Source of the DNA: a bacterium
GTDB taxonomy: Bacteria > Patescibacteriota > Minisyncoccia > 2-02-FULL-40-12 > IGHO2-12-FULL-4
Direction: 5' to 3'
Length of the DNA: 64,000 nucleotides
Assembly (NCBI GenBank): GCA_030647955.1
Contig: JAUSIQ010000004.1
Span: forward strand, 36,533 to 100,532
The notes beneath the pieces were generated by a model. The model was not told the origin of the DNA. It was given only the letters and a program-made list of their open reading frames with translations, and did no database searches. Of this stretch, positions 56,724-57,944 are shown piece by piece. Positions within the stretch are counted from its first letter, which is position 1. Each line of letters starts with the position of its first letter. The position numbers and the translations under genes were made by a program.

Positions 56724-57043
56724 AGATAAGGTACCCGTTATGCCCAACTCTTTACAAAAGGGAGGTGACCATGGGCGGTGCCCTGTAGGGCCCCGGACGG
56801 ATGTGCTCCCGGATGGCGAAAGCTGTCCGGGACACTCCGCGAGGGAGTCTGAAGGGGGACGGGTATGATAACCAAAAGAAAGGAGGTACCCAAGTGGGTG
56901 CGTTGTAAGGTGTTGATTATTGTTCTTGGAGGTCGGTAAGATGGTGTAAGTATTGCAGTAAAAATCGATTCGACTGACAAAACGGGGCGCGGAGTGTTGA
57001 TAGGCAATTTCGCCATCGACGCTCTAGCGCCCCCTCTTTTTTG
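56724..57043 (+). ncRNA. Candidate noncoding/leader transcript of about 320 nt, bounded by a consensus promoter and a terminator. It contains GC-rich element G1 and two SD-preceded mini-ORFs (MGGAL, MGAL)
   Basis: No ORF longer than 60 aa in any frame apart from ones overlapping the palindrome. GC-rich hairpins include CTCC-GCGA-GGAG with a GNRA loop. Terminator GGGGCGC...GCGCCCC plus a T-run at 56984-57043. Class unknown. Not confidently RNase P, tmRNA or SRP RNA. Confidence 0.4.
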
Positions 57044-57944
57044 CCAAAATGCCCATAAAAATGGGATTTTTTTATACCATCTTCATTTTTGTGTCAATTT
57101 TTTAAGAAATGTGTCACGAATAAGTGCCAGTTTTTTATTCATAATCTTCTTAAAAATCAAGGAAAATAAGCATAATTATGAATTTATGTCACAAATACTT
57201 GACAAGATTATGAAAGAGGAGTATACTGTATGTATAAGCTGAGATGAAGTTCGGCGGGGGCCAGAGGAACATCGCTGTCAAAGCTGGCTGACGCTCAAAC
57301 CAACCATTACTGGAAAGCTCGTTAAATCAGGGTAAAAGTGGTCTTTCCGCGCAAGCCGAAAGCCATTTTATTAAATCCTTGGTTTGCTAAACGGCTAACC
57401 GGTCGTCGAAGGAACGCGATTTCTCTTCGGCACAGGTCAGTTTTTCCGTCAAAAGCGGATTTTACAACCAAACAAATCCTTCGGAACGCTAAAATTAACC
57501 AGAGTGTTTCAAAGGATGAGGATGTTCCTTGTAGGAACATCCGGGAAGAATCCCCATCTTTCCGGACGTTCTTATAAATTTGACATTCCTCCTGGGTCCC
57601 ACAGCGGAACTAAGCCGGGCACCATTATGGGGATAGTGGTGCTGCGCGGGCTGATTGCCGTTGGAGACCGGACCAAAGTGTCCGGATAGGGTGATGGCAG
57701 TCACCTAAGTGAGCGGAACAACTCCGCTCACTCTCACTCAGGGGGAAAGGTATTATACGAGCCGAAGACGTGACTCGGCTCCCCATCAAAGTTTTCAGTG
57801 CTTTATAAATTTAGCATATGCCAGTTTTATAAAGCATGGTGAAGATTTTGATGGGGAGATGGGGGCGAACCCGCCCAAGTTTTGCCAAGCAAAATTTAGG
57901 CGGGCGAATTGTTCGCCGTCCAAATTCTTTGACAAGGAGATAGC

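What the first reader, a model, noticed from the sequence alone, without database searches (positions are those of the whole stretch)
56791..57757. GC-rich structured element present twice (G1 56791-56871, G2 57666-57757) inside the ORF-poor island
G1 reads CCGGACggatGTGcTCCCGGATGG...CACTCCGC-gagggagt-CTGAAGGGGGACGGGTATGATA. G2 reads CCGGACcaaaGTG-TCCGGATAGG...CAACTCCGC-tcactctc-ACTCAGGGGGAAAGGTATTATA. They share the same blocks in the same order, while internal segments differ (GNRA hairpin versus GTGAGCGG/CCGCTCAC hairpin). This again suggests a conserved RNA structure rather than simple duplication.

Each copy is followed by an SD-like or palindromic element. The second copy lies in a separate transcription unit that starts at TTGACA-N17-TATACT (57199-57227).

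Together with the palindromic P-elements this looks like a modular array of RNA or regulatory cassettes.
Basis: seen in the sequence. Interest (0 to 1): 0.55.

Follow-up and report, generated by a model that had tools for sequence, protein, structure and literature searches.

The report
Hairpin modules in two conserved RNAs
The two look-alike GC-rich segments are not copies of one RNA motif; they are lineage-specific hairpin modules inside two neighbouring, co-regulated RNAs of a Patescibacteria genome that have no Rfam match, and one of these RNAs carries two conserved 4-5-codon mini-genes.

Summary
Their shared blocks in the same order beat shuffles only under gap-tolerant alignment (z about 6.5). 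nhmmer does not link them. They fold differently: G1 is one long GAAA-capped hairpin and G2 is three hairpins. They have no consensus structure, and no further copy turned up in 595 kb of related DNA.

About 25 related loci show what they belong to. Downstream of a trmB-like gene lie two separate transcripts. Both promoters carry the same TGTCA-N8-TGACA palindrome.

RNA1 (about 56724-57042) has its own terminator and two strong Shine-Dalgarno (SD, ribosome-binding) sites, each followed by a mini-ORF. Here the peptides are MGGAL* and MGAL*; elsewhere MGGW*, MGW*, MGL*, MGAF*. The reading frame is kept, and codon differences between relatives are synonymous. G1 is the hairpin spacer between the two mini-ORFs; its sequence differs in every lineage.

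RNA2 has a core at about 57234-57580 with 19 covarying pairs and no Rfam hit. The core ends in two mutually exclusive helices. G2 is part of an optional 3' domain of RNA2.

The "repeated riboswitch-like element" reading is not supported. The locus does hold two RNA families that match nothing in Rfam or in the literature I could search. Their function is inferred, not shown.

The parts
55894..56649 (+). trmB-like HTH regulator gene; the conserved neighbour of the RNA pair
   Evidence: Pfam TrmB at 1.8e-13. 628 homologues, named ones from Patescibacteria. Only the N-terminal HTH matches TrmB proteins or structures.
56668..56717 (+). Operator-like palindrome TGTCA-N8-TGACA (56677-56694) overlapping the -35 box of a perfect promoter, TTGACA-17-TATAAT (56689-56717); drives RNA1
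   Evidence: 12/12 promoter match and 17-bp inverted repeat. The palindrome occurs only twice in the 64 kb, at the two RNA promoters, and is conserved in about 15 loci.
56724..57042 (+). RNA1: a stand-alone transcript with two mini-ORFs
   Evidence: Fold z = -6.4. Homologues with the same layout sit next to trmB in about 25 loci. No Rfam hit.
56760..56788 (+). SD1 (GGGAGGTGA, 56760-56768) and mini-ORF1, ATG GGC GGT GCC CTG TAG = MGGAL* (56771-56788)
   Evidence: The same peptide in L013 and L093 is written with synonymous codons.
56791..56845 (+). G1 core: one long interrupted hairpin capped by GAAA (56818-56821), starting 2 nt after the mini-ORF1 stop codon
   Evidence: MFE helices. A stable spacer hairpin is present in 14/14 twin mini-ORF RNAs, with lineage-specific sequence.
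56853..56870 (+). 3' block of G1 (AGGGGGACGGGTATGATA). In the predicted folds GGGG pairs with CCCT inside mini-ORF1, and ACGGGTAT pairs either with the RNA1 5' end (about 56731-56739) or with GGTACCC next to SD2
   Evidence: The CGGGTA strand is also present in the L002 and L094 RNA1 spacers.
56878..56908 (+). SD2 (GAAAGGAGGT) and mini-ORF2, GTG GGT GCG TTG TAA = MGAL* (56894-56908)
   Evidence: L013 has ATG GGT GCA CTT TGA, the same peptide with synonymous codons.
56984..57042 (+). Intrinsic terminator of RNA1 (GGGGCGCGG...GCGCCCC followed by CTCTTTTTT)
   Evidence: An equivalent GC stem plus T-run ends RNA1 in the homologues.
57187..57227 (+). Second TGTCA-N8-TGACA palindrome overlapping TTGACA-17-TATACT; drives RNA2
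57234..57580 (+). RNA2 core. Long-range helix 57310-57334 with 57376-57402. Switch region: a 57520-57528, a' 57534-57545, a'' 57561-57572
   Evidence: 12-sequence alignment: 92% of cells paired, 19 pairs changed on both sides, slid controls 36-48%. The a-a' helix is 91% paired with one covarying pair.
57585..57757 (+). Optional 3' domain of RNA2 (D2). Closing helix 57585-57596 with 57737-57748. G2 is its three hairpins (57668-57685, 57689-57706, 57708-57732) plus the 3' strand of the closing helix
   Evidence: The same layout occurs in L005, L006, L011 and L002 with different stem sequences. The domain is absent in L012, L026 and L027.
57759..57858 (+). Hairpin (57759-57781) followed by palindromic P-element 1
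58567..58649 (+). P-element 2 (84% identical to P-element 1)
57945..58410 (+). Cargo downstream of RNA2: ORF129 (57945-58334) and an overlapping 32-aa ORF ending LEYLRGK (58312-58410)
   Evidence: ORF129 has only 3 homologues among 5.8 billion proteins, all next to RNA2. In L027 the small ORF follows RNA2 directly.

Best explanation
G1 and G2 are not two copies of one element. They are lineage-variable hairpin modules in two different RNAs that lie side by side downstream of a trmB-like regulator gene in a clade of Patescibacteria.

Shown:
- Each RNA has its own consensus promoter, and each promoter overlaps the same TGTCA-N8-TGACA palindrome.
- RNA1 ends in an intrinsic terminator. It carries two very strong SD sites, each followed by a 3-7-codon ORF that ends in a bulky hydrophobic residue (Leu here, Trp in most relatives).
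- G1 is the stable hairpin spacer between the two mini-ORFs. Such a hairpin is always present, but its sequence differs from lineage to lineage.
- RNA2 is a covariation-supported structured RNA. Its core ends in two mutually exclusive helices (a-a' and a'-a'').
- G2 is the three-hairpin half of an optional 3' domain of RNA2.

Inferred:
- The mini-ORFs are translated.
- The G1 stem begins 2 nt after the first stop codon, and its flanks pair with codons of mini-ORF1 and with the 5' leader. A ribosome on mini-ORF1 must therefore melt the base of this structure. That would re-pair the ACGGGUAU strand and change access to SD2 and its GUG start. On this reading G1 works as a ribosome-operated spacer or latch in a translational relay.
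- The adjacent TrmB-like protein is the likely factor that binds the shared palindrome.
- The weak G1/G2 resemblance most likely reflects similar building blocks (GC hairpins followed by a purine-rich, SD-like strand) plus chance.
For: G1 and G2 do not share a fold.
- Each folds strongly alone, but differently.
- The pair has no consensus structure.
- nhmmer does not link them, and a two-sequence profile finds no third copy in 595 kb.

G1 is a variable spacer.
- 14/14 twin mini-ORF RNAs have a 74-127-nt spacer that folds at -27 to -50 kcal/mol. Pairing starts 0-7 nt after the first stop codon, and the stems are unrelated in sequence.
- The closest relatives, L013, L093 and L094, have other hairpins at this position.

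The mini-ORFs look translated.
- SD plus mini-ORF lies beside trmB in nearly every locus with TrmB identity of 55% or more and enough flank, and in other orientations at 39-48% identity.
- By my tally of the sites listed, all roughly 20 W-stop sites in RNA1 have an in-frame SD-linked start; the sites that lie outside RNA1 are mostly out of frame.
- Codon differences are synonymous: MGGAL is GGC GGT GCC CTG here and GGT GGC GCT CTC in L093; MGAL is GCG TTG here and GCA CTT in L013; MTSW is ACG AGT in one locus and ACA AGC in another.
- The two ORFs of one RNA usually end in the same residue.

RNA2 is a real structured RNA.
- 92% of cells are paired, 19 pairs change on both sides, and 0/500 shuffles match this; slid controls give 36-48%.
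- The 3' domain D2 has the same layout in four other loci, and conserved junction nucleotides are visible in the alignment. It is absent in three loci.

The two RNAs share regulation.
- TGTCA-N6-10-TGACA occurs only at 56677 and 57187 in the 64 kb, and at both promoters in about 15 loci.
Against: - There are no expression or ribosome data, so translation of the mini-ORFs and the relay mechanism are inferred.
- Gap-tolerant alignment of G1 with G2 does exceed every control, so some shared history or gene conversion is not excluded.
- The single-sequence covariance model of G2 has no power. It gives G1 5.3 bits, but true D2 orthologues score only 6.6-6.9 bits. That test cannot separate the cases.
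- The RNA1 structure around H1 is taken from MFE predictions, not from a formal covariation test.
- The output of RNA1 is unknown: its 3' part is not conserved, and RNA2 has its own promoter.
- Many loci come from a few sampling projects and are not independent.
Confidence: 0.6

Rival explanations
1. One reading: G1 and G2 are two copies of one conserved structured RNA motif (riboswitch- or aptamer-like), each controlling what follows it.
For: - The blocks lie in the same order, with gap-tolerant alignment at z about 6.5.
- The 18-nt 3' block is unique to the two sites.
- Both lie in structured RNA upstream of SD-like sequences.
Against: - The folds differ: one hairpin against three.
- The consensus structure has 9 pairs at -5 kcal/mol.
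- nhmmer gives E>10.
- No further copies were found in the related loci or in viral contigs.
- G1's sequence is not conserved in L013, L093 or L094.
- The G2 orthologues keep the hairpin layout but not the blocks shared with G1.
- No Rfam family matches.
Confidence: 0.05
2. G1 and G2 share ancestry through a partial duplication or gene conversion between RNA1 and RNA2 in this lineage, or the RNA2 3' domain descends from an RNA1-type module. No common function is implied.
For: - G1 against G2 outscores all 1025 tiles of homologous islands.
- G2's best foreign matches are the RNA1 spacers of L027 (19.5) and L021, not D2 orthologues.
- Both modules end in CUC...AGGGG(G)AAAGG, closed by a CCUCC-like strand.
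Against: - The blocks G1 shares with G2 (ACTCCGC, GGGACGGGTA) are also present in the RNA1 spacers of L002 and L094. They are therefore old in RNA1.
- G2's GGGAAAGG strand is old in RNA2. The resemblance can thus arise from two independent contexts.
- Identity is low and gap-rich, and standard homology search is negative.
Confidence: 0.15
3. The mini-ORFs are not translated. RNA1 is a purely non-coding RNA whose SD-like GGAGG motifs and hairpins (G1 included) bind the 16S 3' end, a protein or another RNA.
For: - SD1 and the start codons are partly buried in predicted helices.
- CUCC/GGAGG self-pairing is common in the homologues.
- There is no direct evidence of translation.
Against: - Frame is kept at about 20 of 20 W-stop sites in RNA1, by my tally.
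- Length changes come in whole codons (MGW, MGGW, MGGGW).
- Codon swaps are synonymous.
- The C-terminal residue class is conserved and matches between the two ORFs of one RNA.
Confidence: 0.12
4. The island is a cassette array or mobile element. On this reading the P-element palindromes are recombination sites, and G1 and G2 are incidental cassette-border structures.
For: - Two 79-nt palindromes flank ORF129.
- The cargo downstream of RNA2 varies between loci, and D2 is optional.
- ORF129 is extremely rare.
Against: - The RNA1-RNA2 order and its link to trmB are stable across many lineages.
- The P-elements lack the RYYYAAC/GTTRRRY cores of attC sites (read).
- No match in phage or viral collections.
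- G1 lies inside RNA1, far from any P-element.
Confidence: 0.08

Closest known systems
Ribosome-dependent leader-peptide attenuators (trpL, leuL, pheL; tnaC; erm/cat leaders)
   Same: A short ORF with its own SD is embedded in competing RNA helices. The informative codon is Trp, Leu or Phe. The transcript ends at an intrinsic terminator.
   Different: - The ORFs are only 3-7 codons, with a single informative codon as the last sense codon.
- There are two ORFs in tandem, separated by a large hairpin.
- The terminator lies 40-75 nt beyond ORF2.
- No biosynthetic gene follows. The next unit, RNA2, has its own promoter.
- No Rfam leader family matches.
Minigenes (phage lambda bar; the LEE1 leader minigene, PMC3262186; the axe-txe minigene, PMC8708949)
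   Same: A strong SD is followed by an ORF of a few codons. In these systems the act of translating the minigene, not the peptide, affects neighbouring expression or tRNA pools (established knowledge plus the abstracts seen).
   Different: - Here the minigenes sit on a dedicated, separately promoted and terminated RNA.
- They are conserved as a pair across a bacterial clade.
- Their C-terminal residue class is conserved.
- Any effect on tRNA or neighbouring genes is untested.
Dual-function attenuator RNAs such as rnTrpL/peTrpL of Sinorhizobium (PMC6614838, PMC7968998)
   Same: A small terminated transcript that both encodes a tiny Trp-containing peptide and is a structured RNA.
   Different: - peTrpL is 14 aa and comes from a true trp attenuator.
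- In RNA1 no base-pairing seed is conserved in the 3' part (my reading).
Large structured bacterial RNAs of unknown function in Rfam (OLE, GOLLD, ROOL, raiA)
   Same: RNA2 is several hundred nt long, has long-range covarying helices, and sits in an ORF-poor island.
   Different: - No similarity to any of the 4227 Rfam models at E<=0.01.
- RNA2 is restricted, as far as seen, to trmB-linked loci of one Patescibacteria clade.
- It is followed by small ORFs.

Membership tests
Two-copy repeat or paralogous RNA motif (G1 = G2) | Sequence similarity above chance | tested here: inconclusive
   Gap-tolerant alignment gives z about 6.5, with 0/1000 shuffles and 0/1601 real control tiles reaching the score. 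BLAST-like scoring gives p about 0.017 and is beaten by other tiles. nhmmer gives E>10.
Two-copy repeat or paralogous RNA motif (G1 = G2) | Common secondary structure with compensatory changes | tested here: not met
   G1 is one long GAAA-capped hairpin and G2 is three hairpins. RNAalifold finds 9 pairs at -5 kcal/mol with 1 compensatory pair. In the covariance-model alignment of G1 to the G2 model, two of the three hairpins are marked as not forming standard pairs or are deleted; that model lacks power.
Two-copy repeat or paralogous RNA motif (G1 = G2) | Further copies, or conservation of the shared blocks in relatives | tested here: not met
   No further hit in 595 kb, in 92 loci or in viral contigs. 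The G1 position in L013, L093 and L094 holds other hairpins.
Known riboswitch or cis-regulatory RNA families (Rfam 15) | Score at or above the family's gathering threshold | tested here: not met
   0 hits at gathering score in the window. The best weak hit over G1 is Guanidine-III at 16.3 bits against 36. 0 hits at E<=0.01 in five homologous loci.
Leader-peptide transcription attenuator | Short ORF with an SD and regulatory codons | tested here: met
   Two SD-linked ORFs are present, and the last sense codon is Leu/Leu here and Trp/Trp in most relatives. Frame is preserved.
Leader-peptide transcription attenuator | Terminator/antiterminator alternatives that the ribosome on the ORF can reach, upstream of the regulated genes on the same transcript | tested here: inconclusive
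   A terminator is present (56984-57042) but lies 75 nt past ORF2. The competing ACGGGUAU pairings are predicted only. The downstream unit has its own promoter.
Minigene (bar-type) | Strong SD followed by an ORF of 2-7 codons | tested here: met
Minigene (bar-type) | Peptidyl-tRNA drop-off or tRNA sequestration on expression | not testable with these tools
   This needs in vivo expression in a strain with limiting peptidyl-tRNA hydrolase (Pth), or biochemical assays.
Intrinsic terminator (the a'-a'' hairpin of RNA2) | GC-rich stem followed at once by a U-tract | tested here: not met
   The stem is present and covaries. The 3' tails read UUCUUAUAAAUUU, CCUGUAAAUAA, ACUUUCAGG and the like, with no U-run. 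The scanner flags it only weakly.
Integron attC sites (the P-elements) | Imperfect palindrome with RYYYAAC ... GTTRRRY cores, next to promoterless cassettes | tested here: not met
   The palindromes are present but their ends read CYCCAYCAAAR...YUUUGRUGGRG. No integrase was seen within the fetched flanks; this was not searched systematically.

The most novel reading that the evidence does not exclude
RNA1 is a new class of dedicated, repressor-controlled tandem-minigene RNA in Patescibacteria. Translating its two 3-7-codon ORFs, which both end in the same bulky residue (Trp, Leu or Phe), would be the functional act. It could sense the supply of that aminoacyl-tRNA, or tie up that tRNA as peptidyl-tRNA to throttle growth. 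Alternatively the tetra- and pentapeptides are themselves the products, which would put them among the smallest conserved genes known. The hairpin spacer (G1) would be the ribosome-operated latch between the two ORFs. RNA2 would be a partner structured RNA under the same operator.
Probability: 0.25. Interest if true: 0.8.

Novelty: new variant of a known kind. Interest (0 to 1): 0.58.

Why it matters
As submitted, the finding (a riboswitch-like element present twice) does not hold, and that closes it. Following it up exposed a conserved three-part locus in ultra-small, uncultivated Patescibacteria: a trmB-like regulator, a tandem mini-ORF RNA and a 340-nt covarying RNA. None of the three parts matched Rfam, Pfam, NCBIfam or the literature I could search.

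Conserved 3-7-codon ORFs with frame-preserving and synonymous variation are rare. Their terminal residue is coordinated between the two ORFs of one RNA. This gives a concrete, testable handle on how bacteria with reduced genomes might sense amino-acid or tRNA supply, or control translation. RNA2 would add a well-supported family to the set of large structured RNAs of unknown function.

Tried and rejected
- Rfam at gathering score and at permissive E-values, on the window and on five loci: nothing.
- Exact-pattern scans for RNA2. Viral contigs gave 0. GTDB genomes gave only the contig already known, plus 3 chance hits. JGI metagenomes gave 0. The patterns were probably too strict. The protein-anchored route through TrmB worked instead.
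- Phage BLAST of the island: no match.
- A scan of viral contigs for the G motif: 0.
- A covariance model built from G2 alone gave G1 5.3 bits, but true orthologues scored only 6.6-6.9 bits and random sites up to 14 bits. I rejected it as uninformative.
- RNA1:RNA2 trans-pairing with RNAduplex returned meaningless full-length duplexes. Dropped.
- Stop-codon readthrough joining mini-ORF1 to mini-ORF2: in frame in only 7 of 14 loci (start coordinates). Rejected.
- The 24-codon ORF starting at ATG 56865 after the AGGGGGA of G1 is not conserved in L013. Rejected.
- a'-a'' as an intrinsic terminator: no U-tract. Rejected.
- P-elements as attC sites: the core motifs are absent.
- The TrmB C-terminal domain was not identified by PDB or NCBIfam sequence search, so the effector remains unknown.
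Full report
**1. The observation**

Each segment folds strongly on its own, but into a different shape.
- G1 is a single long, interrupted stem. Its helices are 56791-93/56843-45, 56798-801/56836-39, 56803-05/56833-35 and 56807-17/56822-32. It is capped by a GAAA tetraloop and folds at -43 kcal/mol.
- G2 is three separate hairpins (57668-85, 57689-706, 57708-32) at -38.5 kcal/mol.

Whether the two are alike beyond chance depends on the test.
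- BLAST-like scoring keeps only the 18-nt 3' block. 34 of 2000 dinucleotide shuffles reach that score, and other tiles of the window score higher.
- A gap-tolerant alignment strings the blocks together and scores 21.5, against 9.4 +/- 1.9 in shuffles. No control reaches it: 0/1000 shuffles, 0/576 GC-rich window tiles and 0/1025 tiles from homologous RNA islands.
- nhmmer at maximum sensitivity, run with either segment, does not report the other at E<=10. A profile built from both finds no third copy in 595 kb.
- RNAalifold gives the pair 9 common base pairs at -5 kcal/mol.

The aligned blocks also do different structural jobs. CCGGAC pairs with GTCCGG in G2, but in G1 it is split between two helices. 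TCCGGAT is a 3' strand in G2 and a 5' strand in G1. ACTCCGC is loop plus 3' strand in G2 and a 3' strand in G1.

A covariance model built from G2 alone gave G1 only 5.3 bits. It gave the true orthologues of G2 just 6.6-6.9 bits, so I do not count that test either way.

**2. What surrounds them**

The window has no tRNA gene and no Rfam hit. The gene upstream (55894-56649) encodes a TrmB-family HTH protein. The homologues that carry a name come from Patescibacteria, for example Ca. Yanofskybacteria at 61% identity.

Two near-perfect sigma-70 promoters lie in the ORF-poor stretch, at 56689-56717 and 57199-57227. The RNAs they would produce fold far better than shuffles, with z = -6.4 and -8.6. 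The first ends in a GC stem plus T-run at 56984-57042.

Both -35 boxes are the right half of a TGTCA-N8-TGACA palindrome. That palindrome occurs nowhere else in the 64 kb and recurs at both promoters in about 15 related loci. G1 and G2 therefore lie in two separate but co-regulated transcripts, which I call RNA1 and RNA2.

**3. Relatives**

DNA-pattern scans of the public collections gave almost nothing. Loci fetched through TrmB homologues did work. They showed that the order trmB, RNA1, RNA2 is conserved. nhmmer finds the RNA2 core in about 14 distinct loci.

**4. RNA2 and G2**

A 12-sequence alignment of the core supports a long-range helix (57310-57334 with 57376-57402) and the a'-a'' hairpin.
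- 92% of cells are paired.
- 19 pairs change on both sides, and 0/500 shuffles match this.
- Slid controls give 36-48% pairing.

A second helix, a-a' (57520-28 with 57534-42), is 91% paired and covaries at its top. It shares ACAUCC with a'-a'', so the two helices exclude each other. The a'-a'' stem is not followed by a U-tract in any lineage, so it is not a canonical terminator.

What follows the core varies between loci:
- small ORFs follow directly in L012, L026, L027 and L017;
- a terminator follows in L015;
- a further large structured block follows in L002 and L033;
- a 170-nt 3' domain follows in the window, L005, L006, L011 and L002.

That 3' domain has a closing helix between a CCUCC-like strand and a purine-rich strand, a 5' arm with a conserved GGGGAU loop, and three hairpins. 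Conserved junction nucleotides are visible around the hairpins in the alignment. The stems differ in sequence between loci. G2 is those three hairpins plus the 3' closing strand. It is a genuine structured sub-domain, but an optional one.

**5. RNA1 and G1**

Every RNA1 homologue has one or, more often, two very strong SD sites, each followed by a tiny ORF.
- The window has MGGAL* (56771-88) and, from a GTG start, MGAL* (56894-908).
- Relatives have MGGW*/MSSW*, MGGW*/MGW*, MGGGW*/MTSW*, MGL*/MGGL*, MGLF*/MGAF*, MQW* and others.

Four observations argue that these ORFs are read as codons.
- By my tally of the sites listed, all roughly 20 SD-linked W-stop sites in RNA1 are in frame; the sites that lie outside RNA1 are mostly out of frame.
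- Length differences come in whole codons.
- Identical peptides are written with different codons. MGGAL is GGC GGT GCC CTG in the window and GGT GGC GCT CTC in L093. MGAL is GCG TTG in the window and GCA CTT in L013. MTSW is ACG AGT in one locus and ACA AGC in another.
- The two ORFs of one RNA nearly always end in the same residue: W/W, L/L or F/F.

Between the two ORFs, all 14 twin RNAs have a spacer of 74-127 nt that folds at -27 to -50 kcal/mol. Pairing begins 0-7 nt after the first stop codon, and the stems are unrelated in sequence. G1 is this spacer in the window. Its closest relatives carry other hairpins at the same place: L013 at 78% TrmB identity, L093 at 69% and L094 at 68%. Some of G1's 3' blocks (CACTCC..GGGA..CGGGTA) are shared with the RNA1 spacers of L002 and L094, so they are old within RNA1.

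**6. The resemblance between G1 and G2**

G2's best matches outside the window are RNA1 spacers of L027 and L021, not the orthologous RNA2 domains. What recurs is a building plan: GC hairpins, then CUC, then a purine-rich AGGGG(G)AAAGG strand. In RNA1 that strand is, or adjoins, SD2. In RNA2 it closes the 3' domain against a CCUCC-like strand.

The blocks that G1 shares with G2 have separate orthologues within RNA1 and within RNA2. I therefore read the similarity as a shared building style plus chance. An old module transfer between the two RNAs remains possible (I put it at about 0.15).

**7. Mechanism (inferred)**

In the predicted folds, SD1 and the AUG of mini-ORF1 sit in a local hairpin. 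Codons of mini-ORF1 (CCCU, 56781-84) pair with GGGG (56854-57). The base of G1 begins at 56791. ACGGGUAU (56860-67) can pair either with the 5' leader (GGUACCCGU) or with a second GGUACCC next to SD2.

A ribosome that stalls or terminates on mini-ORF1 covers about 12-15 nt past its A site (established knowledge). It must therefore open these pairings while leaving the GAAA-capped top of G1 intact. That would shift the ACGGGUAU strand and change access to SD2 and its GUG start.

I therefore propose that G1 is a ribosome-operated spacer or latch in a two-step translational relay. The input would be decoding of the last, bulky-residue codon. What the relay finally controls is unknown. The options I see are tRNA or amino-acid sensing, bar-like tRNA sequestration, or the peptides themselves as products. 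The TrmB-like protein is the obvious candidate for the shared operator. None of this has been tested.

**8. Comparison with known systems, and verdict**

The nearest known systems are leader-peptide attenuators, minigenes (lambda bar, LEE1, axe-txe) and dual-function attenuator RNAs such as rnTrpL/peTrpL. RNA1 differs from all of them:
- its ORFs are extremely short;
- they come in tandem with a hairpin between them;
- the transcript stands alone with its own promoter and terminator;
- it is linked to a regulator gene, not to biosynthetic genes.

RNA2 matches no Rfam family. Literature searches found no description of either RNA in Patescibacteria.

The locus nonetheless contains two well-supported RNA families that I could not find described, and they deserve follow-up.

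Noticed in passing
window 62205-62660: An ORF-free, GC-rich stretch that folds far better than shuffles (z = -7.8 on + and -6.6 on -). It contains a 26-nt inverted repeat at 62498-62552. No Rfam hit at E<=0.1. It may be another structured RNA.
   Followed up: partly
window 60040-60460: A non-coding stretch with a promoter-like TTGCAC..TATAAT and a perfect 17-bp palindrome at 60356-60390. Fold z is about -5.3. No Rfam hit.
   Followed up: partly
L002 8091-8780; L033 6676-7042; L091 3563-4260 (minus strand): A third large (>600 nt), ORF-free, GC-rich block starting CCCUGGAGAGC lies downstream of RNA2 in some relatives. The copies are related to one another by nhmmer (E = 1e-37 and 5e-16). It is absent from the window. 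The L002 copy has no Rfam hit; L033 and L091 were not scanned.
   Followed up: partly
window 57781-57856 and 58569-58644; also L005, L006, L011, L012, L039/L040: Palindromic P-elements with conserved ends (CYCCAYCAAAR ... YUUUGRUGGRG) and variable centres flank the ORF129 unit. They have no U-tail and no attC-type cores. Their role is unknown.
   Followed up: partly
window 56677-56694 and 57187-57204: TGTCA-N8-TGACA occurs only at these two sites in the 64 kb. Each copy overlaps the -35 box of one of the two RNA promoters, and the same arrangement is seen in about 15 related loci. It looks like a shared operator, presumably for the adjacent TrmB-like protein.
   Followed up: yes
window 58312-58410: A 32-aa ORF (MRPVVVGKRMYWEADGILFATRKAALEYLRGK) with a strong SD overlaps the end of ORF129. 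It is conserved in L005, L006 and L027; in L027 it follows RNA2 directly.
   Followed up: partly
window 57945-58334: ORF129 is GC-rich (60%) and has no Pfam or NCBIfam match. It has only three homologues among 5.8 billion clustered proteins, all downstream of RNA2.
   Followed up: yes
window 57520-57572 (RNA2): Three-part element: a GGAUGUUCC, a' GGAACAUCC(GGG), a'' CCGGACGUUC. Both a-a' and a'-a'' are supported by covariation, yet they cannot form together. The window also has a fourth a'-like copy (GGAACAUCG) near 57268.
   Followed up: partly
L017 1030-1290: In one relative a small ORF resembling a GIY-YIG/URI-domain protein lies between trmB and RNA1. This was judged by eye from the translation and not tested.
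   Followed up: no
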